Assembly: GCA_041306075.1 (NCBI GenBank)
Contig: JBFYKH010000027.1
Location: 4,226 to 68,225 of the forward strand
Length of the DNA stretch: 64,000 bases
Origin: Candidatus Altiarchaeota archaeon
GTDB taxonomy: Archaea; Altiarchaeota; Altiarchaeia; IMC4; SCGC-AAA252-I15
Reading direction: 5' to 3'
Part shown: positions 833-58,011 of the stretch, piece after piece
Layout: the number at the start of each line of letters is the position of its first letter
How positions within the stretch are numbered: the first letter of the stretch is position 1
Made by a program: the position numbers and the translations under genes
The notes under the pieces: generated by a model
Told to the model about the DNA's origin: nothing
What the model saw: only the letters and a program-made list of their open reading frames with translations
The model's database searches: none

Positions 833-1050
833 CAGCAAAGAATATGACTAGCCGGTAAAATAACCGGTATGTGAGGAATCGCGAGGTGGTGGTAGGTGGT
901 CAACAGCGTCCGAGAGTTCCCGCAGCTGATGCAGTACAGTCTCCTTCGCTGGAGGTCTTAACTTCTGCGTTCGGAACGAGTGCAGGTGGTGCCCCTCCGC
1001 TATGGCCGTTGACCGACTATATAATAAGCAGGACCACTATAAAAGCACCT

Positions 1051-24952: not shown

Positions 24953-25978
24953 TCAGACCAGCGGGGCGCCGAAATACGAGTAGAAGGCCGCGGCCGAGAA
25001 CAGGGCCTCGAACGCTATGAGCGTCAGCACCAGCTTCTGTTCGGACACGCCGCCGAAGAGGTGCATGACGAGCCTGCCGAGCCCGTAGATTTCGCCCCCC
25101 TTCACGCAGAAGAGCCTCCCATCCTTCACGTCGCACCAGCTCTGCGCCTTGAAGCGGCTCCTCGCCTTCAGGACGAGCTCAAGGAAGAAGGGGGCTATGA
25201 GGATGATGCCGACCTTCTCTATGTTGCCGACGATGACCGAGGAGGCGAGCACCGCCCCTATGCTGAGGGTGCCGACGTCGCCGATGAGTATCCTCGAAGG
25301 ATGCCAGTTGAACCTGAGGAAAGCCAGGAGGGCGCCGAGCATAGCGAACGAGATGACCGCGGACTCCGTCCTGCCGAGCATGAACGCTATCGCCCCGGCG
25401 GTCCCGCACATCACAACCCCGAGGCCCGCCTCCAGGCCATTGAAGCCGGCGAGCATGTTGGTCGCGTTCGAAGCCCCCGTTATCGCGATGGGTATGAGGA
25501 CGAGGGGGTAGAGTATGCCGAAGTCCACGGCCCCCAGGAAAGGCAGGTCCATGGAACCCACGCCCGCGTTCACGGCCACGAGGGGGAGTGCCGCGAATAT
25601 CGGCAGCATCGCCTTCACCCGCTGGTCGAGGCGGAGGAGGTCGTCGATGACGCCTATGAGGGCCGTCGCCAGTATCGTCGAAAGGCATGCGAGGACGAGC
25701 GCCAGGTTCAAAGGCACGTCTATGACGTTGAACGTCGACAACGCTATGGCCGCGAGGACGCCCACCAGGAACCCCCCGATTATCGCGAAGCCGCCCATCT
25801 CGGCCACGACCAGCTTCCCCGGCTTGTTCATGTCCCGGCCGGAAATCCCGGCCTTCAGGAGCCGCGGGATGAACCAGGGGATAGTCACGTAAGTGAACGC
25901 GAACGACGCCAGAAACACCGCGAAAACGCTTAACATCATGGAACATATAATACTTAGTGAATAAAATGGCACTCCCAC
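24953..25978 (-). CDS. UDP-HexNAc:dolichyl-phosphate HexNAc-1-phosphate transferase (AglH/Alg7/WecA family, MraY-like)
   Basis: Polytopic protein with GASNATNMLAGFNGLEAG and LIGDVGTLSIGAVLA motifs typical of GPT-family enzymes; adjacent to GT4 genes. Confidence 0.7.
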   Translation of the reverse strand: MGVPFYSLSIICSMMLSVFAVFLASFAFTYVTIPWFIPRLLKAGISGRDMNKPGKLVVAEMGGFAIIGGFLVGVLAAIALSTFNVIDVPLNLALVLACLSTILATALIGVIDDLLRLDQRVKAMLPIFAALPLVAVNAGVGSMDLPFLGAVDFGILYPLVLIPIAITGASNATNMLAGFNGLEAGLGVVMCGTAGAIAFMLGRTESAVISFAMLGALLAFLRFNWHPSRILIGDVGTLSIGAVLASSVIVGNIEKVGIILIAPFFLELVLKARSRFKAQSWCDVKDGRLFCVKGGEIYGLGRLVMHLFGGVSEQKLVLTLIAFEALFSAAAFYSYFGAPLV

Positions 25979-26571
25979 TGGCGTTTGACCCGCAGTCGGC
26001 CGACTTCAACCTCGTAGTCCTGCCGGTGCTCATATTCCTGGCCCGCATATGCGACGTCACAATAGACACCATAAGGGTCATATACCTGAACCGCGGCATG
26101 AAGTACGTGGCCCCCGTACTCGGCTTCTTCGAAATCATCATATGGCTCCTCGCCATAGGGCAGATAATGATGAACCTCACGAGCCCCATACACTACATCG
26201 CCTACGCTGCCGGCTTCGCCGTCGGCAACTTCGTGGGCATCATTGTCGAGGAGATGCTGTCGGTCGGGACCGTACTCGTCAGGGTGATAACCAAACGCGA
26301 CCCCCAAGCCCTCATCGAACACCTGAGGATGAGCGGCCACACCACCACCTCCCACGAGGCATGCGGCGAGAGCGGACCCTCAAGGATAGTCTTCACGGTC
26401 GCGAAACGGAAGGAGGTCGGGAGCATCGTCGCCATAATAAAGGAGCACAACCCCAACGCATTCTACACAGTCGAAGACGTCAAATACGCTAGCGGAGACG
26501 CCTTGAACACCAGCTTCGACCCCAAGAGAAACTTCCTGGGCTCCCTCAGAAGCCTCAGGAAAAGCAAGTGA
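25966..26571 (+). CDS. UPF0316/DUF2179-family membrane protein
   Basis: About 200 aa, 3 N-terminal TM helices plus a soluble C-terminal domain; architecture typical of the YitT/UPF0316 family. Confidence 0.45.
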   Translation: MALPLAFDPQSADFNLVVLPVLIFLARICDVTIDTIRVIYLNRGMKYVAPVLGFFEIIIWLLAIGQIMMNLTSPIHYIAYAAGFAVGNFVGIIVEEMLSVGTVLVRVITKRDPQALIEHLRMSGHTTTSHEACGESGPSRIVFTVAKRKEVGSIVAIIKEHNPNAFYTVEDVKYASGDALNTSFDPKRNFLGSLRSLRKSK

Positions 26572-26572
26572 A

Positions 26573-26612
26573 CCCCCTATTTTAAAGGATACTGCATATA
26601 GTAAAAACCCCC
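26573..26612 (+). promoter_or_regulatory. TATA-like promoter region upstream of tRNA-like array
   Basis: ccccctattttaaaggatactgcatatagtaaaaacc precedes unit 1. Confidence 0.3.
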
Positions 26613-26628
26613 GGAAACAGGGGCATAC

Positions 26629-26745
26629 GCGACCGTAGTGTAGTGGCTCGGCCTTCCTAAGGCCGGCGAAGGAGCCATCTTCGCTCGGGCTCGATGGCTC
26701 AGGACGTATGAACCCGCAGAGGGGGATGGAACAAACAACAGTGTA
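26629..26745 (+). ncRNA. tRNA-Gly-derived degenerate tRNA-like unit 1 (5' half + anticodon-like arm CCU, no 3' acceptor strand) fused to a conserved hairpin module
   Basis: Starts with GCGACCGTAGTGTAGTGGCT, identical to the 5' 20 nt of tRNA-Gly at 26877; then CGGCC-TTCCTAA-GGCCG (perfect 5-bp stem, 7-nt loop, U33/A37); then CGAAGGAGCCATCTTCGCTCGGGCTCGATGGCTCAG. No CGGTCGC acceptor 3' strand. Confidence 0.4.
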
Positions 26746-26746
26746 C

Positions 26747-26870
26747 GCGACCGTAGTGTAGTGGCTATCACTGAACCTTATTAAGGTTCACGAAGGAGCC
26801 GTCTTCGCTACGGCTCGACGGCTCAGAACGGATGAAGCCTCTGACAAGGGGGTGGATTAAACAAAAAAAA
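26747..26870 (+). ncRNA. tRNA-Gly-derived degenerate tRNA-like unit 2 (acceptor 5' strand + D-arm + anticodon-like arm with loop UUAUUAA) fused to the same conserved hairpin module
   Basis: GCGACCGTAGTGTAGTGGCTATCACT identical to tRNA-Gly positions 1-26; then GAACC-TTATTAA-GGTTC; then CGAAGGAGCCGTCTTCGCTACGGCTCGACGGCTCAG, which shows compensatory A:T to G:C changes relative to unit 1; no 3' acceptor strand. Confidence 0.4.
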
Positions 26871-26876
26871 CCATAC

Positions 26877-26948
26877 GCGACCGTAGTGTAGTGGCTATCA
26901 CTCCAGATTGCCAATCTGGTGACTCGGGTTCGAATCCCGACGGTCGCA
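26877..26948 (+). tRNA. tRNA-Gly (anticodon GCC), intronless
   Basis: GCGACCG-TA-GTGTAGTGGCTATCAC-T-CCAGA-TTGCCAA-TCTGG-TGAC-TCGGG-TTCGAAT-CCCGA-CGGTCGC-A; canonical cloverleaf with 4-nt variable loop; CCA not encoded. Confidence 0.9.
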
Positions 26949-26975
26949 AACTGATTTATTTGTTAACGATTTCTT

Positions 26976-27036
26976 GTCACGAAACCGTCGGGGTGCAAAA
27001 AGCCTGCAGGCTTTTATAGAAAATCACGACTGCCGC
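26976..27036 (+). repeat. ~60-nt structured repeat, copy 1 (immediately 3' of tRNA-Gly)
   Basis: tcacgaaACCGTCGGGGtgcAAAAAGCCTGCAGGCTTTTatagaaaatCACGACTGCCG; about 85% identical to copy 2; inner palindrome AAAAGCC/GGCTTTT. Confidence 0.6.
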
Positions 27037-27073
27037 ATGGATAAAAAGGTATATCCCCTAGGGATGATACATA

Positions 27074-27319
27074 ATGATGGACAAAGGGGATACTCGCGTA
27101 ATCTGGATTATTTCAATAATAATAGTCATGGCAATTTTCCCCCATAGCGAAAAAAGATGTGAACGATGCTCGGAGCTATTTACGCTTGGCTGGCCAATCG
27201 ATACCTATTCAAGAAACAGCACGGGAGATTTGATTGCGCCCGGGGCAGGACTTATAGTATACCCTTTAACCATCCTAATCCTTCTTACCTATCGAAACCA
27301 GCATAAAAAAATTAATTAG
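27074..27319 (+). CDS. doubtful small hydrophobic ORF within AT-rich insert
   Basis: 81-aa ORF in a ~500-bp AT-rich segment between the two structured repeats; no support beyond ORF length. Confidence 0.15.
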   Translation: MMDKGDTRVIWIISIIIVMAIFPHSEKRCERCSELFTLGWPIDTYSRNSTGDLIAPGAGLIVYPLTILILLTYRNQHKKIN

Positions 27320-27536
27320 GTTGATTTTTCCCTAGTACCCATTCACCTTGGAGGTTGAGGTATATTTCTAGGTTTCCACCCCCCCCGACCCATCCGTTCG
27401 CTCGTACAATGTTCTTCGCCTGGTATTGAAGTCCGATACAGCCGCAAAATTTTTCGGAGATGTGGGATGGCTACGCATTAGATATTTTACGCAATTCCCA
27501 ACGGCCGGAAACTGAATTTTTGGCGGACAATTTATC

Positions 27537-27596
27537 GTCACGAAACCGTCGGGGTGTAAAAACCTGAATGGTTTTTAGAAAAATCCCGACGGTCGA
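27537..27596 (+). repeat. ~60-nt structured repeat, copy 2; 3' arm is a 14-nt identical copy of the tRNA-Gly 3' end (att-like)
   Basis: tcacgaaACCGTCGGGGtgtAAAAACCtgaatGGTTTTTagaaaaaTCCCGACGGTcgaaa; AATCCCGACGGTCG (27582-27595) equals tRNA-Gly 26931-26944. Outer 9-bp stem ACCGTCGGG/CCCGACGGT; inner stem AAAAACC/GGTTTTT covaries with copy 1. Confidence 0.6.
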
Positions 27597-27672
27597 AATT
27601 ATATCTATTATCGGTTTGGCTGCTGTGTTGAAATAGTGTAGCGACTTAATATCGTATACTTCCGGCTTGTAT

Positions 27673-28398
27673 ATGACGATGAGGAAGTTGAGGGGGCAGC
27701 CGCTGCTTTCCCCGCCCGGCCCGGATTTGGTGCCTGAGTGGCTGAGGGTGACGCCAGAGGACAGGGAATGCATGAGAGGGACGCTTGAGACGTATAGGAC
27801 GATGGACGGCCTCGACTGGGCGTTGGCGGAGTTGCACTGCCATATGCGGCTTATTGGCGAGACGCAGACCGTGACGGATGAGGATAAGAGGGGGTTTACG
27901 AGCCAGATGGAATCGTATAGGACGGACCGGGACGGCTGGGGTGTGGCCTTGATGCAGTATTCCATGCGGCAGCTCGGGGTGGCGGAAGCGGTAACTGAGC
28001 AGGATAGGAGGCTCATGAGGCGTGAGTTGGAGGCGGACAGGACAGGTCACAAGGGCGGAGAGCTTGCCTGGATGCACTATACTATGCGGCAGCTCGGGGT
28101 GACGGAGGCGGTAACCGGCGAGGACAGGCAGGACATGAAACAGCAGTTGGGCGGATACAGGACGGACCACGACGGCGCGGGAGTCGCCAGGATGCACTAT
28201 TATATGCGGCAGATTGGGGAGGGGGAGGCGGTGACGGGCCAGGACCGCATCGACATGAGGCATTCCCTGGAGGCGTTTAGGTCGAGCCCGGACGGCCGGG
28301 AGATGGCCTGGATGCACCACGTCCTCCGCTCCCTGGAGCCGGACGGCGGGAGGCAGGCGCAAGCCGGGATGCCGCCTTTGAAATCGTTCAGGAGGTAA
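27673..28398 (+). CDS. RP family member 1: novel ~40-aa tandem helical-repeat protein with conserved N- and C-terminal caps
   Basis: MTMRKLRGQPLLSPPG... then 4.5 repeats (..DGxxxAxMHYxMRQLGVxEAVTxEDRxxMxxxLxxYRT..) ... GMPPLKSFRR; paralogous to five other genes in the window. Confidence 0.6.
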   Translation: MTMRKLRGQPLLSPPGPDLVPEWLRVTPEDRECMRGTLETYRTMDGLDWALAELHCHMRLIGETQTVTDEDKRGFTSQMESYRTDRDGWGVALMQYSMRQLGVAEAVTEQDRRLMRRELEADRTGHKGGELAWMHYTMRQLGVTEAVTGEDRQDMKQQLGGYRTDHDGAGVARMHYYMRQIGEGEAVTGQDRIDMRHSLEAFRSSPDGREMAWMHHVLRSLEPDGGRQAQAGMPPLKSFRR

Positions 28399-28416
28399 TA
28401 AGCGCTCAGGGAGAAT

Positions 28417-28662
28417 ATGTTTTGTGGCATGATGAAAAGACACCACATAATATTGCTGGTTCAATGGTTTTTCTTCACGTCGCTGATACTGTTCGTGCTG
28501 ATTCAGCTGGGTATCCTCAACCGCGCCCCGGCCGGGTTGACGGCGTTCGAGAAGGCCGTTGTAATCTTCGAGGCGGTAGTCGGCATCCAGTTCCTCTACC
28601 TCGTGTTGTTCGCGCTCTGCTATGGCCCCGGTTTCGTCTCAAAAAAGCTGGGATTTGATTGA
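28417..28662 (+). CDS. small membrane protein (2 TM), hypothetical
   Basis: 81 aa with two long hydrophobic segments; follows RP1 after an 18-nt gap. Confidence 0.35.
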   Translation: MFCGMMKRHHIILLVQWFFFTSLILFVLIQLGILNRAPAGLTAFEKAVVIFEAVVGIQFLYLVLFALCYGPGFVSKKLGFD

Positions 28663-28812
28663 GCCGGGGGGTTAGTTGGTTTCTGCTTCGCTTTTTTTTC
28701 GTCCGGCTTCTTCCGGGTTTCTTTTTGGGGTGTGTCTTCCCGGAGGGTAAAATCCTTTATTTTCGGCGCTTCTGGGTAGAGTTCGATTCCCGGGAACCTT
28801 GGCTCTGGTTTC

Positions 28813-51647: not shown

Positions 51648-52058
51648 ATGATTGAATGGTTCGTCCTCGGCATAGCCGCGTCGGCCGTGCTCGTCACCTT
51701 CGGGAGCCTGCCCGTGGTCCTGAAGGGCGTGGCGCTCGCGAGGAGGAGGGACCGGTTCAAATGCACCCTCTGCGGCAACTGCTGCAGGTTCAGGACGACG
51801 CCGCTCACCCGGGAGGACATTAAGAGGCTTGAGGCGGCTGGATACAGGGACTTCGCCGACACCTCCCAGGAGCCGAAGATGAGGAGGAACAACGGGAAGT
51901 GCGTGTTCCTGAAGGACGACAAGTGCGCGGTCCACGAGCACAGGCCGGAAGTATGCAGGGAATTCCCCTTCTTCAGGGAGTACGGCGTCTCTTACGCGAG
52001 GCGGGCAACATACTGCCCCGCCCTGGAGGAGTTGGAGTATGCGCGCAAAAGGGGCTGA
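51648..52058 (+). CDS. YkgJ/UPF0153-family Fe-S (CxxCxxCC) protein
   Basis: KCTLCGNCCRF ... GKCVFLKDDKCAVHEHRPEVCREFPF; TATA cctataaaag 25 nt upstream (leaderless). Confidence 0.6.
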   Translation: MIEWFVLGIAASAVLVTFGSLPVVLKGVALARRRDRFKCTLCGNCCRFRTTPLTREDIKRLEAAGYRDFADTSQEPKMRRNNGKCVFLKDDKCAVHEHRPEVCREFPFFREYGVSYARRATYCPALEELEYARKRG

Positions 52059-52803
52059 CGAGCTCGCCTGGATGAGGGAACTCCTCTTTCCGCTAGACGA
52101 CATGCTGAAGCCTGTCATGGGAGTCCGCGACTGGGACGACGCCGCATGCCTGGAATTCAACGGCAGACTGGTCGTGTCCGCAGACGGCCCCTATGCGAAA
52201 CGGCTCGTCCTCAAGAGCGCCCTCATACACGCCGCCGGAGACGTCGTAGTCAAAGGCGCAAGGCCGCTCTTCGCCCTCGACACCATGATAGGCCCGGAAG
52301 AGGACGTCCGGGAGATGATTGAAGCGCTGAAAACGCAGGCCGAGGCGATGAGCATACCGTTGATTGGCGGCAACACGCTCTTCGACGACGTCGAGCCCCG
52401 CTCTAGCATAACCGTCGCCGGACGGCTGGAGTGCAAGGAGCCTGTAAGGGACAACGGTGCGAAGGAGGGGGATGCCATAGTCCTCGTCGGCGAACCCATA
52501 TGGGGGACGATGGACGAGAGGATGCCGAAGGCGAAGAAGCTCTTCACGACATGGCTTCAGGCCGTGAAGGAAACCGGCATCCACGCCGCCAAGGACGTCA
52601 CCAAAGGCGGCCTACGCGCTGTCGTCAGGGAGATGGAGTGGAAAAGCGGAAGAAAATTCAAACTAGACGAGAAACTACCCTACCCGAGCGGCCGCAACCT
52701 CGACAACTTCATCGCAACACTCACGGAAAACGAGTGCGTGAACCTCGAGAAAATCTGCGCCAAACACGGATGCAAACTCACGAGGATAGGGACGGTCGGA
52801 TAG
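52039..52803 (+). CDS. AIR-synthase-related (PurM-like superfamily) protein
   Basis: DWDDAACLEFNGRLVVSADGPY (PurM N-domain signature) ... IPLIGGNT ... ; 254 aa. Confidence 0.55.
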   Translation: MRAKGADELAWMRELLFPLDDMLKPVMGVRDWDDAACLEFNGRLVVSADGPYAKRLVLKSALIHAAGDVVVKGARPLFALDTMIGPEEDVREMIEALKTQAEAMSIPLIGGNTLFDDVEPRSSITVAGRLECKEPVRDNGAKEGDAIVLVGEPIWGTMDERMPKAKKLFTTWLQAVKETGIHAAKDVTKGGLRAVVREMEWKSGRKFKLDEKLPYPSGRNLDNFIATLTENECVNLEKICAKHGCKLTRIGTVG

Positions 52804-52844
52804 AGTCGGCCTACGGATATATACGCTGAGTACAATAGGGGTAT

Positions 52845-53504
52845 GTGCCAAACAGCCAAAAACTCAAGGTCTCTGAGGCCGCGCTCATCGCCTCCAACGC
52901 GATGGTGCTGCTTTACGCCCTGATATCCTATAGGGACCAGCTTTTCATCATCTACGCCTTCCTCGGGGAGAACGCCGTTATATGCGCCTTCGTTTTTTTG
53001 AAGTTGATGGTCGTGGCGTTCTACGGGGCCCGCGAGAGGGTAAGGGGGAAGGCCCGGTTGACGTTCAGCAACGAACTCTTCGGCCATATAGGATTCCCCT
53101 TAAGCTTCCTTATCACCAACGCAATCCTGGTGATGATTAGTTTCTGGGTTGTCAGTGGCATCCTCGCCCGCCGGAGCAGGGGCATGGAGTGGGCCATTTC
53201 GATAAACATACTCGACCTGATAGCCATTCCCATGCTGGTGTACACCGCAAGTCACCTCGTGTCCTTCGCCTCCAATTTCATAGGCCTGAGGGAGTACGGC
53301 AGAGAATATGGGAGGCCGGGTATGGTCCCGATAATTAAGTACCCGTTCATCAGGATGATTTCGTTCGCCTTCTTCGGAGTTGCGGCCGCGGCTATGTCCG
53401 GCCCGGCCTCGGTCTCAGCGGTCCTGCCCGCCGTAGCCCTCACGATAGCCAAGACGTCGACGGACCTGTACTACCACAGAAGGGAGCACGAGACGGGAAG
53501 CTGA
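52845..53504 (+). CDS. hypothetical polytopic membrane protein
   Basis: 219 aa, 5-6 hydrophobic helices; sits between the PurM-like gene and a duplicated PurM-like 3' fragment. Confidence 0.4.
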   Translation: MPNSQKLKVSEAALIASNAMVLLYALISYRDQLFIIYAFLGENAVICAFVFLKLMVVAFYGARERVRGKARLTFSNELFGHIGFPLSFLITNAILVMISFWVVSGILARRSRGMEWAISINILDLIAIPMLVYTASHLVSFASNFIGLREYGREYGRPGMVPIIKYPFIRMISFAFFGVAAAAMSGPASVSAVLPAVALTIAKTSTDLYYHRREHETGS

Positions 53505-53596
53505 TGGTCACACTCACAGGATACGAGTACGTCAACCTCGAAAGGATATGCGCGAAAACCGGATGCAGGCTCGCGAAGATAGGGACAGCAGAGTAA
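53504..53596 (+). pseudogene. orphan 3' fragment paralogous to the C-terminus of the PurM-like gene
   Basis: Encodes MVTLTGYEYVNLERICAKTGCRLAKIGTAE*; nucleotides 53518-53596 are ~75% identical to 52723-52803 (TENECVNLEKICAKHGCKLTRIGTVG*). Confidence 0.45.
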
Positions 53597-53686
53597 AAAA
53601 AACGGGCGATTCAAGCCACGCCTCCGACAAGCTTCTCCAGATAGGATAAATGCGATGTTATATTTCGTCGCGCGGATAGGTAGATT

Positions 53687-54868
53687 ATGGCCCTGGTTGA
53701 GAATGAAGAAGTGAACGAGCTGGTTCTTAACGAAGTACGCAGTTGGGTTGATGACGGCATCATCACAGAAGAGCAGGCATCCAGGATATCTGAAAGATTA
53801 AGGTGTAAGGGAAAAAGCTCCACGTTGACAAGCTCTCGTTTTATCACCATCTTGTCGGTCATGGGCGCCCTGCTTCTGGGCCTTGGAGTAATCCTGTTTT
53901 TCGCCGCCAATTGGCAGGCAATCCCCAAATTTGTAAAGGTGCTGATGATATTAAGTTTAATTGCAGCCACCTACCTCATCGGCTATTACCTGAAATATGT
54001 GAAAAAAGACTATCCAATGGTGGGCAGCGCCCTCATCTTCCTTGGCTGTTTGCTCTATGGTGCGGGAATCTGGCTTATCGCCCAGATGTACAATATGAAC
54101 GCACATTACCCAAACAGCATACTCCTATGGGTCGCCGGCATACTCCCGATGGCCTATCTTGGCTCTTCTTCAGCCATACTCGTATTATCCCTGTTGTTGA
54201 TGTCGTTTTGGGTCACGTCCGAAGTTACCTTCCTGACATATGCGACAAGATACTCCTACCTCAGCCTGATAATGCTCTACGGAGCCGTATTGCTTGCAAT
54301 AGGCAACAGACATAGGCTCGGTAGGTACTCGTTTTTTAGCGGCTATTATGCGGTACTCGGGATGATACTCATCCACGTCTCTGCATTCCCGCTGACATTC
54401 TCATTCACCCATGCGGGGAGCGCTTTCGAGCCAGTCCCAGAAACCCTTGCACTCATAGAGATTCTAGTCATGGTTTTGGCAGCAGGCTTAACATTCCCTT
54501 ACGAAGCGATTAAATCACGGAATATCGACGTCTCCTTTACAGACGTTATAGGAGTTGTGCTGATCTGCCTTCTTGCCATATCCGTGACCGCGGCCCCGTC
54601 ACTTTTTTCAAACTATATTATTTCGAACACCTTATACTTCCTTCTGCTCGTTGGCTCAGTGTATATGGGAGTTACAAAACAGTCCTCGGGGATTATTAAC
54701 ATTGGTGTTGTTTTCTTCTGCCTTGACGTTATTGCCAGATACTTCGGCTTATTCTGGGAGTTGTTGCCCACGTCGCTATTCTTCCTCTGCGGGGGTGCCC
54801 TGGTACTCGGCGGCGGGATAGCACTGGAGAGGAAGAGGCGCGGCATACTAAGAGCCCTAAAAAAATGA
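53687..54868 (+). CDS. DUF2157-family polytopic membrane protein
   Basis: N-terminal soluble segment (VRSWVDDGIITEEQASRISE) then ~10 TM; paired with a downstream GDYXXLXY-domain gene, as is typical for this family. Confidence 0.5.
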   Translation: MALVENEEVNELVLNEVRSWVDDGIITEEQASRISERLRCKGKSSTLTSSRFITILSVMGALLLGLGVILFFAANWQAIPKFVKVLMILSLIAATYLIGYYLKYVKKDYPMVGSALIFLGCLLYGAGIWLIAQMYNMNAHYPNSILLWVAGILPMAYLGSSSAILVLSLLLMSFWVTSEVTFLTYATRYSYLSLIMLYGAVLLAIGNRHRLGRYSFFSGYYAVLGMILIHVSAFPLTFSFTHAGSAFEPVPETLALIEILVMVLAAGLTFPYEAIKSRNIDVSFTDVIGVVLICLLAISVTAAPSLFSNYIISNTLYFLLLVGSVYMGVTKQSSGIINIGVVFFCLDVIARYFGLFWELLPTSLFFLCGGALVLGGGIALERKRRGILRALKK

Positions 54869-55386
54869 AAAAGAGACGCTTCATCAGCATAGTCGTATTT
54901 CAGATGACGCTATTACTGTTGATGATAGCCTACAAACAGTATTCAGTCTATACCGGAGAAACGATACGCCTCCACCTCCAGCGGCCTGTTGACCCGCGGA
55001 GCGTGTTCTCGGGCAATTATGTCATTCTCTCCTATGATATTTCGACCTTAAACCAAAGCTTGGCCCGGGGGGAATCGTTCAATTATGGGGATACGGTTTA
55101 CGTGGCATTATCAAAACAGGGGGAGTACTGGGTTCCCGCATCGATTGAAAAGATTCCGCCAAAAAAAATCTTTATCAAAGGGACAGTAGCGAGTTCATGG
55201 GGAGGCAGTATACAGGCAAGGTATGACATAGAGCAGTTCTATATCCCCGACTCCCGGGCGAAGGAGATGGAAGAACGACTGAGGATTGCTGAACGATCTG
55301 GAGACGCCTATGCCGAGGTTGTAATAGACGGCAACGGGAATGCCATTGTGTCAAAGGTATTCCTAGGGGTGGAGGAACTGGTATAG
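54865..55386 (+). CDS. GDYXXLXY-domain protein (membrane-anchored)
   Basis: N-terminal TM; FSGNYVILSYDIS contains the GDYxxLxY-like motif (GNYVILSY); ATGA overlap with DUF2157 gene. Confidence 0.55.
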   Translation: MKKRRFISIVVFQMTLLLLMIAYKQYSVYTGETIRLHLQRPVDPRSVFSGNYVILSYDISTLNQSLARGESFNYGDTVYVALSKQGEYWVPASIEKIPPKKIFIKGTVASSWGGSIQARYDIEQFYIPDSRAKEMEERLRIAERSGDAYAEVVIDGNGNAIVSKVFLGVEELV

Positions 55387-55749
55387 GACCTAGTAGGACA
55401 TACACGGACAGGATGCTGTCACCTGAGTGGCTGAAGTTTGGACACAATACATGCTAAATTTCTTATGACCTGAGTAAAAAGGTTTGTCAGGGACATGAAC
55501 CACAACTTCAACAGAAGAGGCCTTTGCCCCTTCCGGCCTGAAGAGCCTGCGGCCCTCCAATCAAGCCACGCCAACGACACGTCAGTAAAAAGGCGGCTTA
55601 TAGAGGGTTGTTTTTCGAGTTGCCGGTTTGTTTATAGACCGATACTATCAGTAAATAGAGGGATTATGGGTACTTCCGTTAGAAGAGACATACAGATATT
55701 ACAAAACCTGGTGAAAATACGTCAATGCAAAGCCCAATATGGTATACGC

Positions 55750-57993
55750 TCATTCAATCTTTGGTTCGCTTATGGTTATCTTTTGTCCTGCTCGCACGTA
55801 TAGGACATCTTTGTCCTTGAACCTATTCAAAAGCTTTTCCTCCTCGGATTCCAGTTTGGGTATGGAAAAGCCGAGGATTATTATGTCTGCTAAAGCTGAT
55901 CTCTCATCAATCAAGGCCTCGAGGGTTTTTTCTCCTTCGTCGTATTGTATCTCCTGGATTATGTCCTTTGAAAGCGGCAGTTCCTCTGATTCGATGAGTG
56001 CGGTTAGTTTCTGGAGGTGGCTGTCGAGATGATTCTTGTGGAATGTGGCGAATATATCTATTGATGAGCCCTTCCATTCAGGGTGCTCGCTCAGGATATA
56101 TGCGAGCATTGTCATCAACTTAGCGTTTCGGTAGTCCTCAGGATTAAGCCAAACATGTATCCTGGTCTTATAGCCAAAGCGTTTCTCGGATGGACGTAGT
56201 ATGCAGATGTTGTAGCTCATCATGGCTGCAAGGCGGCTGGCGTCTATGATGTTCCGTATACTGTCCGGGTCTTCGGCATCATATTCCACAAGTAAGCCGT
56301 TGTTTTCCATCCCGGATACGCCAGGCATCTGGATAATATCTTCCACTGCAGACTTGAATGACGGGGCGATGATTGTGTCTGCGTATATGGATGATTTGCT
56401 CGCAGCCCCGATTTGCACCAGCCCCTCAAGGTCCTTCTTAGACCTCCGTTTAGTCTCCTGGGAAAGCTCGCCTTTGATGTAGTGTATGTAGGTCCCAAAG
56501 CCATAGTAGTGTGAGAACCATCTTAGGAGGTCGAACAGCGCAAGTCGTTTGAAAGATGTGGATGATAGACCGATAAACGAGGGTCTCCATCCCGTAAATG
56601 ATAGGTCCATCTGGTAGTGTTGGATGATCACCCGGAGCTTGCGAGATAGCTGGAAGAAAGCACCTGTGACCATATCCGAGAGGTCAAACTCATCGGAGTG
56701 ATTTTTTTTGATGTTGAGGTATATCCCGCCTATCGCTATCAGTGAGAGGGTTGCGTAGAATGGAGACATCTGAAACATAATAAAGAAGCATAGTACAGCC
56801 CCCGTAAGGGAGAGATACCATTTTGTCCTGAATGTGGGTTGGTAGGACAGATTTCCTGCGAAATGCTGTAGGAAACTCACAAGGCATACGGCGCCGTAGG
56901 TTACCATGAAGAACATGCTGATTATCTGCGCTACGAAATCTACGGTGCCTATGAATACGAAGAATAAGACGATTATGGCTGTCACGAATGTCGCGTTTGC
57001 CGGTTCATTCGCTTCTCCGAAACCCTTGCTTAGATAGTGGTTCAGTGTCTTTGACGGAAAAACCCTATCCTTTGCCAATGCCTGCATAGTGCGTGGAGCT
57101 ATGAGGAGTGAACCGACAGCGGAAGACAATGTCGCACAAGCCAGACCAACCAGGATGAGCGGACCCCACAATGCGATCTTACCCATGATTAGCTGGTCAG
57201 CCGATAAATCCCCAGGTGACGCCGAAAGAGCTAACTTTATCACCACAAGGAAGTATACGACCATTCCAACCAAAGTAGCAGAGACCGTCCCTAATGGAAT
57301 CGATTTTGCCGGGTTTTTCAAGTCGCCAGACAAACCCACTCCTGCGGTGAGGCCGGTGAATGCAGGGAACACTATCGCAAACACCAGGAAGAAACTGGCT
57401 GGATTGTCGATTGTGGAAAAAAAGTTGATGTGTTGAATCCCATCCACTGGCGAACCTAGTAAGAATGAGGCAAGAGATATTCCCATAATGGAGACGATAA
57501 CCCATAAAGCATTAATGCCGATATTGGCGCCTCTGCGGAGTATCGTATATAGGAGCAGGATTGTGGCGGGAATACTCACCATCCTAAGGTCGGGGGTAAT
57601 ACCTGTGCTGGTTTGGATGAAATCAAATAGTGGAGTGAACGCTTGTGAAAATGCAATCATATAAAACGAGACCGAAATCGCCTGCGCAGCGTACAGGGAT
57701 ATGCCGATAGTGCCACCTATCATTGTCCCAAAAGAACGGCTGATGATATAATATTCCCCGCCACCGCGCACTTTCAGATTAGTCGCAATCTCAGAGACGG
57801 CAAGGGCGGTAGGTATAGTTATTGCATGGCCGAGCAGGATTACTAGGAATGCACCGCCCAACCCAAGATTAGCTACCAGATAACCGAACCTGAGGAAGAC
57901 TATCGCCCCCAATATGGTGCTTATCGCTGCCAGGAATACCGGGGCAGTACCGAAATTATGCCCTTTACGTTGGTCATCCATATAGCCTCTCAC
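55750..57993 (-). CDS. APC-superfamily transporter with C-terminal cytoplasmic domain (cation-chloride cotransporter SLC12-like)
   Basis: About 12 TM with amino-acid-permease-like motifs (GGGEYYIISRSFG, FPAFTGLTAG), then a ~300-aa hydrophilic C-terminal domain typical of CCC transporters. Confidence 0.65.
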   Translation of the reverse strand: MRGYMDDQRKGHNFGTAPVFLAAISTILGAIVFLRFGYLVANLGLGGAFLVILLGHAITIPTALAVSEIATNLKVRGGGEYYIISRSFGTMIGGTIGISLYAAQAISVSFYMIAFSQAFTPLFDFIQTSTGITPDLRMVSIPATILLLYTILRRGANIGINALWVIVSIMGISLASFLLGSPVDGIQHINFFSTIDNPASFFLVFAIVFPAFTGLTAGVGLSGDLKNPAKSIPLGTVSATLVGMVVYFLVVIKLALSASPGDLSADQLIMGKIALWGPLILVGLACATLSSAVGSLLIAPRTMQALAKDRVFPSKTLNHYLSKGFGEANEPANATFVTAIIVLFFVFIGTVDFVAQIISMFFMVTYGAVCLVSFLQHFAGNLSYQPTFRTKWYLSLTGAVLCFFIMFQMSPFYATLSLIAIGGIYLNIKKNHSDEFDLSDMVTGAFFQLSRKLRVIIQHYQMDLSFTGWRPSFIGLSSTSFKRLALFDLLRWFSHYYGFGTYIHYIKGELSQETKRRSKKDLEGLVQIGAASKSSIYADTIIAPSFKSAVEDIIQMPGVSGMENNGLLVEYDAEDPDSIRNIIDASRLAAMMSYNICILRPSEKRFGYKTRIHVWLNPEDYRNAKLMTMLAYILSEHPEWKGSSIDIFATFHKNHLDSHLQKLTALIESEELPLSKDIIQEIQYDEGEKTLEALIDERSALADIIILGFSIPKLESEEEKLLNRFKDKDVLYVRAGQKITISEPKIE

Positions 57994-58011
57994 TAAACCT
58001 TCGTTATTGAT

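What the first reader, a model, noticed from the sequence alone, without database searches (positions are those of the whole stretch)
26629..26870. Two tandem tRNA-Gly-derived tRNA-like units with complete anticodon-like arms but no 3' acceptor strand, each fused to a covarying hairpin module
Units at 26629 and 26747 begin with the exact 5' 20-26 nt of the downstream tRNA-Gly. Each then carries a perfect 5-bp-stem/7-nt-loop arm with U33 and A37 positions (loops TTCCTAA and TTATTAA), then a ~45-nt module, but no CGGTCGC acceptor 3' strand and no T-arm. The module contains an 8-bp helix GAGCCATC/GATGGCTC in unit 1 that becomes GAGCCGTC/GACGGCTC in unit 2, a compensatory double substitution. This argues that the module is a selected RNA structure rather than decaying pseudogene sequence. 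Possibilities include tRNA-like processing or decoy elements co-transcribed with tRNA-Gly, fragmented-tRNA relics, or successive att remnants; I cannot decide among these from sequence alone.
Basis: seen in the sequence. Interest (0 to 1): 0.6.

Follow-up and report, generated by a model that had tools for sequence, protein, structure and literature searches.

The report
Hairpin-bearing tRNA-Gly fragment repeats flanking tRNA-Gly
Two short repeats in front of an archaeal glycine tRNA gene each join an exact copy of the tRNA's first 20-26 bases to two conserved hairpins; they look like small recombination-derived inserts that are now part of the tRNA's leader, not tRNA genes or tRNA halves.

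Summary
The first 20 nt (unit 1, 26629) and 26 nt (unit 2, 26747) of tRNA-Gly(GCC) (26877-26948) are repeated exactly. Each copy is followed by a perfect 5-bp/7-nt hairpin and an 8-bp helix.

Related Altiarchaeota-like contigs carry 0, 1 or 2 such units at the same place. Across the five units found, 8 of 13 base pairs show compensatory changes and 98.5% of cells are paired. The unit core is far better conserved than synonymous sites.

The units are not tRNA-like beyond the 5' fragment:
- They get no Rfam or ARAGORN hit.
- They show no similarity to the rest of the tRNA.
- Their anticodon-position triplets (CCT, ATT, CTT) are inconsistent with one another and with glycine.

The identity to the tRNA ends abruptly. 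Unit number and order differ between relatives, and one relative has an empty site. The 3' side of the same tRNA carries mirror-image units: an antisense copy, a covarying terminator-like hairpin and a 16-nt copy of the tRNA 3' end. These bound low-GC cargo.

Best reading (about 0.5): small att-type recombination inserts at a tRNA integration hotspot, read through as the pre-tRNA leader. No integrase or free element was found. A host-functional leader RNA remains possible (about 0.25).

The parts
26578..26607 (+). Two AT-rich boxes (TATTTTAAA and ATATAGTAAAAA) that are the likely archaeal promoter of the whole array. The same pair of boxes sits directly in front of the tRNA in the relative that has no units.
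   Evidence: Read from the sequence. Conserved in L002, L009, L006, L012 and L023. The promoter role is inferred.
26629..26648 (+). Unit 1: exact copy of tRNA-Gly nucleotides 1-20. Identity ends inside the D-loop.
26649..26665 (+). Unit 1 hairpin H1: CGGCC TTCCTAA GGCCG.
   Evidence: covariation.
26672..26700 (+). Unit 1 helix B: GAGCCATC / GATGGCTC with a 13-nt interior.
   Evidence: I20; covariation.
26701..26746 (+). Unit 1 tail: ATGAA motif, a small CCC/GGG hairpin and an A-rich run ending in GTAC. There is no T-run.
26747..26772 (+). Unit 2: exact copy of tRNA-Gly nucleotides 1-26, including the complete D-arm.
26773..26789 (+). Unit 2 hairpin H1: GAACC TTATTAA GGTTC.
   Evidence: (I10).
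26796..26824 (+). Unit 2 helix B: GAGCCGTC / GACGGCTC. Its interior, AGCCGTCTTCGCTACGGCTCG, is also complementary to the 5' fragment.
   Evidence: (I21).
26825..26876 (+). Unit 2 tail: ATGAA, a small hairpin and an A8 run ending in ATAC, immediately before the tRNA.
26877..26948 (+). The genuine tRNA-Gly(GCC).
   Evidence: ARAGORN; Rfam RF00005 at 69.8 bits.
26949..27037 (+). 3' unit 1: spacer, antisense copy of the tRNA 3' end (ACCGTCGGGGT, 26984-26994), A-tract/GC hairpin/T-tract (26998-27015), and a degenerate copy of the tRNA's last 16 nt (27022-27037, 3 mismatches).
   Evidence: (I5, I9).
27039..27508 (+). Low-GC cargo between the two 3' units, with an 81-aa membrane-like ORF (27074-27319) that has no Pfam match.
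27509..27597 (+). 3' unit 2, with the same architecture as 3' unit 1. It ends in AATCCCGACGGTCGAA (15 of 16 identical to the tRNA 3' end).
27598..28800 (.). The rest of the variable low-GC region between tRNA-Gly and the conserved PLDc_N / S49 peptidase genes. Content differs in every relative.

Best explanation
The units are short inserts of att-junction type at the 5' end of tRNA-Gly(GCC). They are not tRNA genes.

Each unit has two parts. The first is a direct repeat of the host tRNA's own first 20 or 26 nt, plus the TAC just upstream. The second is about 55 nt of unrelated DNA carrying two hairpins (H1: 5 bp with a 7-nt loop; helix B: 8 bp), followed by an A-rich tail.

The units lie between the gene's original promoter and the tRNA. 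I infer that they are transcribed as a roughly 250-nt leader of pre-tRNA-Gly and removed when RNase P cuts at 26877.

I think they arose by site-specific recombination at the 5' part of the tRNA gene. Integrases that target the 5' half of a tRNA leave exactly such orphan 5' fragments. The units were then multiplied, lost and reshuffled by recombination between the repeats. The 3' end of the same tRNA carries the mirror-image arrangement and is a classical integration hotspot.

Shown: the hairpins are kept by selection on pairing, or by recent spread of the insert.

Inferred: the recombination origin, the transcription, and whether pairing is selected in the element (recombination arm) or in the host (so that the extra 5' copies fold locally and do not disturb tRNA folding).
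For: 1. Abrupt junction. Identity to the tRNA is 100% for 20 or 26 nt. After that there is no similarity to the rest of the tRNA plus trailer (alignment z between -0.9 and +0.2).
2. The 5' fragments carry the host-specific tRNA variant: G12 in the window and C12 in L012.
3. Empty and filled sites exist among relatives.
   - L023 (Altiarchaeota MAG) has the same promoter boxes directly before the tRNA and no unit.
   - L006 has only a short remnant.
   - L002, L004 and L009 have one unit.
   - The window and L012 have two.
4. The order of loop types is swapped: TTCCTAA then TTATTAA in the window, TTATTAA then TTCTTAA in L012. The L002 unit looks like a unit 1 (5' part) / unit 2 (3' part) hybrid.
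5. The 3' side mirrors the 5' side. Units of spacer, antisense copy, terminator-like hairpin and a 16-nt tRNA 3' repeat occur in the window (2), L012 (2, plus a third degenerate unit lacking the terminal tRNA copy), L006 (1) and L023 (1 or more), and are absent in L002. They bound variable low-GC cargo.
6. The unit core is conserved well above neutral. Unit 1 versus L012 unit B is 77% identical (92% over 37 nt). Four-fold degenerate sites of the adjacent gene are 37% identical, about the random level, and the promoter region is 47% identical.
7. Covariation: 8 of 13 pairs changed on both sides, 98.5% of cells paired, 0 of 500 shuffles as high, slid controls 17-38% paired.
8. There are no T-runs on the + strand across any unit, but long A-runs, which fits obligatory read-through to the tRNA.
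9. Precedent: pTN3-like integrases use the 5' half of a tRNA gene as attB (PMC8371274). A 5' tRNA-Thr fragment lies upstream of the intact gene across an inserted recombinase element in Caldiarchaeum (PMC3293823).
Against: - No integrase or recombinase gene was found in 26-29 kb or among the other ORFs tested.
- No free element carrying the module was found. IMG/VR scans gave 0 or chance hits, and plasmid and phage BLAST gave nothing relevant.
- The DNA between successive repeats is only 98-150 nt. That is too small for an autonomous element, and the same minimal architecture recurs in five units. So either a miniature non-autonomous unit moves, or the array grew by duplication.
- The sequences next to the junction do not look like inverted core-type integrase sites.
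- Only five units from three lineages are available.
- Transcription was not measured.
Confidence: 0.5

Rival explanations
1. The units are a host-functional structured leader RNA. They would be selected in the host as part of pre-tRNA-Gly. Possible roles are mimics or decoys of a tRNA 5' part plus an anticodon-arm-like hairpin, processing or insulation signals for RNase P, or released small RNAs.
For: - Strong covariation in both hairpins.
- Conservation far above synonymous sites between lineages whose silent sites are saturated.
- Both loop types (TTCYTAA and TTATTAA) are present in both two-unit genomes.
- Loops keep a U33 and U36-A37-A38-like pattern.
- Non-Watson-Crick pairs are G-U on the + strand and never A-C.
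- The units must be read through to express the tRNA (no T-runs).
Against: - The units are dispensable: absent in L023, reduced to a stub in L006, single in L002.
- Their order is not conserved.
- The tails and the interior of helix B are not conserved; L012 unit A has a 70-nt insertion.
- There is no Rfam family.
- There are no copies elsewhere in 99 kb searched with a covariance model.
- The same locus shows classical integration signatures on its 3' side.
Confidence: 0.25
2. The units are the result of plain tandem duplication and decay. Slippage or unequal crossing-over duplicated the leader plus the tRNA 5' end. The hairpins persist without function, because quasi-palindromes are corrected by template switching and the 5' fragments are homogenised by gene conversion.
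For: - The arrays are tandem and have variable copy number.
- The L002 unit looks like a recombinant of units 1 and 2.
- L023 shows a tandem duplication of the repeat plus its right flank on the 3' side.
- The module contains internal short duplications (ACGGCTCG ACGGCTCA) and an inverted copy of the 5' fragment.
Against: - H1 and helix B have no counterpart in the empty locus (L023) or in the tRNA, so foreign DNA had to enter.
- 77-92% identity of the core across lineages with saturated silent sites is not neutral decay.
- Loop sequences are conserved while the stems vary, which template switching does not predict.
Confidence: 0.15
3. The units are 5' halves of split or trans-spliced tRNAs, or alternative 5' exons joined to the 3' part of tRNA-Gly.
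For: - Exact tRNA 5' acceptor strand and D-arm (unit 2), followed by a perfect anticodon-arm-shaped hairpin.
- Archaea do have split and tri-split tRNAs that share halves (my own knowledge; PMC3293823 introduction).
Against: - Anticodon-position triplets CCT, ATT and CTT differ between orthologous unit types and are not glycine anticodons.
- Unit 1, the L002 unit and L012 unit A lack the D-stem 3' strand.
- No complementary partner sequence exists on either strand of the window.
- The units are absent in close relatives that keep the tRNA.
- There is no tRNA-model signal.
Confidence: 0.02

Closest known systems
Orphan 5' tRNA fragments left by mobile elements that integrate into the 5' half of an archaeal tRNA gene. 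Examples are pTN3-like SSV-family integrases in Thermococcales and the tRNA-Thr-F fragment in Caldiarchaeum subterraneum.
   Same: [quoted passage not shown] Identity ends abruptly inside the gene. The tRNA is then expressed through or from the inserted DNA (PMC8371274, PMC3293823).
   Different: In those cases the repeats are separated by a kb-sized element that encodes the integrase or recombinase. Here they are separated by only 98-150 nt with no gene. The insert is two covarying hairpins, the units are in tandem, and no integrase or free element was found.
Partial tRNA gene fragments at integration borders in archaeal genomes, as catalogued for Thermococcaceae.
   Same: These are non-canonical tRNA pieces next to real tRNA genes, caused by element integration (PMC9897764).
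   Different: Those fragments are usually 3' parts, and some are long enough to be mis-called as tRNA genes. The units here are not called by ARAGORN or Rfam at all, and they carry conserved non-tRNA hairpins.
Split and tri-split tRNA 5' halves (Nanoarchaeum equitans, Caldivirga maquilingensis).
   Same: A tRNA 5' acceptor strand and D-arm are encoded without a contiguous 3' strand. Several 5' pieces share one 3' piece (my own knowledge).
   Different: There is no complementary leader pairing and no consistent anticodon. The D-arm is incomplete in three of five units, and the units are dispensable in relatives.
Folded palindromic recombination sites: integron attC sites and the CTX-phi attP(+) hairpin that mimics dif.
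   Same: These are imperfect palindromes in which structure is conserved and sequence is not. In CTX-phi, an inverted copy plus a direct copy of the target site sit next to one junction (my own knowledge; archaeal integrons in bioRxiv 10.1101/2022.02.06.479319, abstract only).
   Different: No IntI or Xer-type recombinase, cassette array or R/L core motifs were identified here. This is a resemblance only and was not tested.
Anticodon-arm mimics in mRNA leaders, such as the E. coli thrS operator.
   Same: Two hairpins shaped like anticodon arms sit in a transcribed leader (my own knowledge).
   Different: The loops here do not mimic the adjacent tRNA's own anticodon loop (TTGCCAA). No regulated coding gene follows, and the organism is an archaeon.

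Membership tests
tRNA (Rfam RF00005 / ARAGORN cloverleaf) | Score at or above the gathering threshold (29 bits), or an ARAGORN call. | tested here: not met
   Only 26877-26948 is called. No hit over the units even at E<=10 in a 1.1-kb search.
tRNA (Rfam RF00005 / ARAGORN cloverleaf) | An acceptor 3' strand and a T-arm are present. | tested here: not met
   No copy of the tRNA 3' end with up to 3 mismatches inside 26629-26876. The rest of each unit is not similar to the rest of the tRNA.
Split-tRNA 5' half | The 3' flank of the half is complementary to the leader of a separate 3'-half gene. | tested here: inconclusive
   No complementary partner on either strand of the 64-kb window. The rest of the genome is not available.
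Split-tRNA 5' half | An intact D-arm and an anticodon consistent with the acceptor identity. | tested here: not met
   The D-stem 3' strand is missing in unit 1, the L002 unit and L012 unit A. Triplets are CCT, ATT and CTT on a Gly acceptor strand.
att-type junction of a tRNA-integrating element | A direct repeat identical to one end of the tRNA gene, with an abrupt boundary. | tested here: met
   20 and 26 nt exact, then no similarity. On the 3' side, 16-nt repeats with 0-3 mismatches.
att-type junction of a tRNA-integrating element | An empty site in a related genome. | tested here: met
   L023 has the promoter directly before the tRNA and no 5' unit. L002 lacks the 3' unit and has one 5' unit.
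att-type junction of a tRNA-integrating element | An integrase or recombinase gene between or next to the repeats. | tested here: not met
   Pfam scans of ORFs in 27-29.2 kb and of other ORFs in the window found no recombinase. No ORF is conserved across the units.
att-type junction of a tRNA-integrating element | A free or full-length element carrying the attP version of the junction. | tested here: not met
   IMG/VR scans were negative or gave chance hits. Plasmid and phage BLAST were negative. GTDB and JGI scans returned only the same lineage.
Dispersed palindromic repeats (REP/BIME/MITE-like) | Many copies dispersed in intergenic regions of the genome. | tested here: not met
   The covariance model R1 finds only the units at tRNA-Gly in the window and 10 loci, 99 kb in all. 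Pattern searches agree.
Structured RNA with conserved secondary structure (generic criterion) | Base pairs kept through compensatory changes in homologues. | tested here: met
   8 of 13 pairs changed on both sides, 98.5% paired, 0 of 500 shuffles as high. Caveats: 5 sequences, and a stems-only alignment that I anchored on the conserved flanks.

The most novel reading that the evidence does not exclude
The units, and their mirror images on the 3' side, could be a previously undescribed kind of miniature mobile module. Each would be a gene-less palindromic cassette of about 100-170 nt. One arm copies the end of the tRNA-Gly gene and the centre is a covarying hairpin. The module would move between Altiarchaeota lineages using a recombinase supplied in trans, perhaps through a folded hairpin site that mimics the tRNA gene end. 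It would then be expressed as tRNA-mimicking leader RNA that the host has to process.
Probability: 0.2. Interest if true: 0.75.

Novelty: new variant of a known kind. Interest (0 to 1): 0.45.

Why it matters
tRNA genes are the classical landing sites for archaeal viruses and plasmids, but the footprints described so far are kb-sized elements or bare tRNA fragments. Here the fragments are coupled to small hairpins that are clearly conserved, on both sides of one essential tRNA gene, and copy number changes between close relatives.

If the units move, they would be the smallest tRNA-targeting inserts known, and a handle on an unknown recombinase in an uncultivated phylum. If the host keeps them, they would be a new kind of structured pre-tRNA leader.

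Either way the cell must fold and process a precursor carrying three copies of the same acceptor 5' strand. That makes this a natural test case for RNase P substrate choice. It is also a practical warning: these repeats break metagenome assemblies at this locus (L001, L003 and L005 all end inside a unit).

Tried and rejected
- Whole-tRNA pseudogene origin. Aligning the remainder of each unit to the remainder of its tRNA plus trailer gave scores no better than shuffles. Rejected.
- Long hairpin between the 5' fragment and the module as the conserved structure. RNAalifold prefers it. But none of its 18 pairs covaries and 5 cells are broken. The G12C change in L012 is not compensated. The duplex is better than shuffles only in unit 2 and the L002 unit. 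I keep it only as a lineage-specific alternative fold.
- GCGAAG/CTTCGC hairpin (variable-arm-like, or a pseudoknot with helix B). It is invariant or absent, so there is no evidence either way.
- C/D-box or K-turn reading of GGATGAA...CTGA. It is not conserved in unit 1 or in L012.
- Coding potential. Only incidental antisense ORFs occur, and they are not conserved between loci.
- Casposon-like or transposon-like insertion. No terminal inverted repeats are seen at the unit ends.
- Collection scans. The GTDB genome scan and the JGI metagenome scan returned only the same lineage plus chance hits in bacterial coding DNA. Six IMG/VR scans and plasmid and phage BLAST gave nothing.
- Contigs I could not read. 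Several relatives' contigs come from one very large JGI sample (3300075153) and returned no DNA.
- Terminator scan. The bacterial-type scan did not flag the 3' hairpins under its criteria.

Full report
**What is there.** The window holds one tRNA-Gly(GCC) at 26877-26948 (ARAGORN; Rfam 69.8 bits). It lies downstream of a DUF5698/DUF2179 membrane-protein gene (25957-26571).

The 20-mer GCGACCGTAGTGTAGTGGCT, which is the tRNA's first 20 nt, occurs exactly three times: at 26629, 26747 and 26877. None is expected by chance. Unit 2 shares 26 nt with the tRNA and unit 1 shares 20 nt. Each copy is preceded by (A/G)TAC.

Each copy is followed by:
- a perfect 5-bp/7-nt hairpin, H1 (CGGCC-TTCCTAA-GGCCG in unit 1, GAACC-TTATTAA-GGTTC in unit 2);
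- the linker (G/A)CGAAG;
- an 8-bp helix, B (GAGCCATC/GATGGCTC in unit 1, GAGCCGTC/GACGGCTC in unit 2, I20 and I21);
- an A-rich tail.

An independent Logan assembly of the same organism reproduces the sequence.

**What the units are not.** Neither ARAGORN nor Rfam sees anything tRNA-like in the units, even at E<=10 in a 1.1-kb search. There is no copy of the tRNA 3' end inside them. After the shared 5' fragment, the rest of each unit is no more similar to the rest of the tRNA plus trailer than shuffled sequence is (z from -0.9 to +0.2). No ORF is conserved over the units. So only the first 20-26 nt derive from the tRNA, and the junction is abrupt.

**Source organism.** The nearest named relatives of the window's HMG-CoA reductase are Candidatus Altiarchaeota/Altiarchaeales MAGs, at 74% identity.

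**Relatives.** I used homologues of the DUF2179 protein to fetch syntenic contigs.

| Locus | Protein identity | 5' side of tRNA-Gly |
|---|---|---|
| L002, L003, L004, L005, L009 | 84% | one unit: CGGCC-GTCCTAA-GGCCG, GAGTCGTC/GACGGCTC with a G-U pair |
| L012 | 65% | two units, A and B |
| L006 | 78% | a stub only: GCGAC followed by the tail |
| L023 (Altiarchaeota MAG GCA_043800705.1) | 57% | no unit; the same two AT-rich boxes sit directly before the tRNA |
| L013, L015 | 64% | tRNA inverted, no units |

In L012, unit A has GAGCC-TTATTAA-GGCTC and helix GAGCGGCT/AGCCGCTC around a 70-nt insertion. Unit B has CGGCC-TTCTTAA-GGCCG and GTGACATC/GATGACAC.

Three further points follow from these loci:
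- The order of loop types is reversed between the window and L012.
- The L002 unit resembles unit 1 in its first 23 core positions (1 difference against 9 for unit 2). It resembles unit 2 in the remaining 37 (4 differences against 7). This is from my count on the alignment.
- The 5' fragments carry the host's own tRNA variant: G12 in the window, C12 in L012.

**Structure.** I built a stems-only alignment of the five units, anchored on the invariant CGAAGG and CTCAG flanks.
- 98.5% of 65 cells form standard pairs.
- 8 of 13 pairs show changes on both sides (3 of 5 in H1, 5 of 8 in helix B).
- No shuffle out of 500 reaches any of these values.
- Sliding the partners drops pairing to 17-38%.

The loop of H1 is conserved as TTMYTAA (one exception, GTCCTAA in L002) while its stem varies.

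RNAalifold prefers a different fold, a roughly 18-bp hairpin between the 5' fragment and the interior of helix B. That fold has no covariation and five broken cells. It is better than shuffles only in unit 2 (z -3.8) and the L002 unit (z -2.6). I regard it as a lineage-specific alternative.

A covariance model built from four unit cores recovers the held-out L012 unit A (31 bits, E about 1e-5). It finds nothing else in the window and ten loci, 99 kb in all.

**Conservation against a neutral yardstick.** Four-fold degenerate sites of the adjacent gene are 68% identical between the window and L002. Between the window and L012 they are 37% identical, against about 34% expected at random for this composition. 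The promoter regions of the window and L012 are 47% identical. Yet unit 1 and L012 unit B are 77% identical over the core, with a 37-nt stretch at 92%. The core is therefore either under purifying selection or has spread recently. It is not decaying.

**The other side of the tRNA.** The last 16 nt of the tRNA (AATCCCGACGGTCGCA) recur at 27022-27037 (3 mismatches) and at 27582-27597 (1 mismatch). Each copy is preceded by a conserved spacer, an antisense copy of the same tRNA end (ACCGTCGGGGT), and an A-tract/GC-hairpin/T-tract.

The same 3' unit occurs twice in L012 with perfect repeats, plus a third degenerate unit lacking the terminal tRNA copy. It occurs once in L006 and at least once in L023, and is absent in L002. 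The central hairpin covaries, with 4 of 6 pairs changed on both sides. The outer pairing to the tRNA-derived arm only shows breaks and G-U pairs.

In the window the two 3' units bracket 470 nt of low-GC DNA with an 81-aa ORF. The whole stretch from the tRNA to about 28.8 kb is low-GC and differs in every relative. This is the standard signature of a tRNA 3' integration hotspot.

**Interpretation.** The 5' units are the mirror image of the 3' units. In each, a distal exact copy of one end of the tRNA gene abuts a conserved hairpin-bearing arm.

The literature gives two relevant precedents. Integrases of the pTN3 type use the 5' half of a tRNA gene as attB, so the tRNA is then expressed through inserted DNA (PMC8371274). 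In Caldiarchaeum, a 5' tRNA-Thr fragment lies upstream of the intact gene across an inserted recombinase-encoding element (PMC3293823).

I therefore read the units as att-type inserts at the 5' end of tRNA-Gly, later duplicated, lost and recombined through their repeats. Four observations fit this: the abrupt junction, the host-specific 5' fragments, the empty site, and the variable number and order.

The first 5' fragment sits where the tRNA start sits in the empty locus. No unit contains a T-run on the + strand, whereas A-runs of 7-8 are present. The units are therefore very probably transcribed from the original promoter as a leader of about 250 nt and removed by RNase P. That step is inferred, not shown.

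**Weak points.**
- No recombinase gene was found nearby.
- No free or full-length element was found in IMG/VR, plasmids or phages.
- The module appeared only in this lineage in the GTDB and JGI scans.
- The inserts are far too small to be autonomous.
- The same minimal architecture in five units argues against independent decay of large elements. Either a miniature unit is what moves, or the array grows by duplication.
- Concerted changes in DNA palindromes can also arise by template switching, without selection on RNA. The conserved loops and the G-U (never A-C) exceptions on the + strand argue somewhat for RNA-level pairing.
- The sample is five units from three lineages.

**Rivals.** A host-selected structured leader, such as a tRNA-end or anticodon-arm mimic or a folding insulator, fits the covariation and conservation. 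It is weakened by the units being dispensable, reordered and internally variable (about 0.25). Neutral tandem duplication with decay does not explain where H1 and helix B came from or why they are conserved (about 0.15). Split or trans-spliced tRNA halves are effectively excluded (0.02).

**Verdict.** This is a real, lineage-restricted, structurally constrained repeat at a tRNA integration hotspot. It is best filed as a new, miniature, hairpin-bearing variant of the known tRNA-fragment footprints of archaeal integrating elements. There is a non-negligible chance that it is a new small mobile module or a functional leader RNA.

Noticed in passing
window 26949-27037 and 27509-27597; L012:3568-3744; L006:816-905; L023:3657-3741: Mirror-image 3' units downstream of tRNA-Gly. 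Each has a spacer, an 11-nt antisense copy of the tRNA 3' end, an A-tract/GC-hairpin/T-tract whose stem covaries, and then a 16-20-nt copy of the tRNA 3' end. In RNA, the antisense copy could pair with the tRNA's own T-stem and acceptor 3' strand.
   Followed up: partly
window 27667-28398 (+): A 243-aa ORF in the low-GC island, made of about five repeats of a roughly 35-aa motif (…MHYxMRQLGxxEAVTxxDRxxM…). It has no Pfam match.
   Followed up: no
L023:3741-3960: After each copy of the tRNA 3' end, the same 30-nt sequence recurs (atctaagtNttcggtcttctgtcctcggtc). This indicates a roughly 180-nt tandem duplication, or two related inserts, in an Altiarchaeota MAG.
   Followed up: no
L013:1979-2446, L015:183-650: In the 64%-identity relatives, a Y1 (IS200/IS605-type) transposase gene sits immediately upstream of the DUF2179 gene. 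There the tRNA-Gly is inverted and has no units.
   Followed up: no
window 26886-26901 vs L012:3505-3520: The tRNA-Gly D-stem differs between lineages by a compensatory pair (G12:C23 in the window, C12:G23 in L012). L012 unit B keeps C12 but has the window-type C23, so its D-arm copy cannot pair.
   Followed up: partly
window 898-1013 (-): A stand-alone 5S rRNA gene with no 23S or 16S rRNA detected next to it in the window.
   Followed up: no
window 52000-58000: A second low-GC stretch (47-55% against about 64%), carrying DUF2157, amino-acid permease and Na+/H+ exchanger genes. It may be acquired DNA.
   Followed up: no
window 26608-26623; unit tails 26711-26725 and 26836-26852: A small C-run/G-run hairpin precedes each copy of the tRNA 5' fragment, including the first one. 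On the minus strand, the first looks like a terminator followed by a T-run.
   Followed up: no
L001 end, L003 end, L005 end: Three independent metagenome assemblies break inside the first or second 5' unit. The repeats fragment assemblies at this locus.
   Followed up: partly
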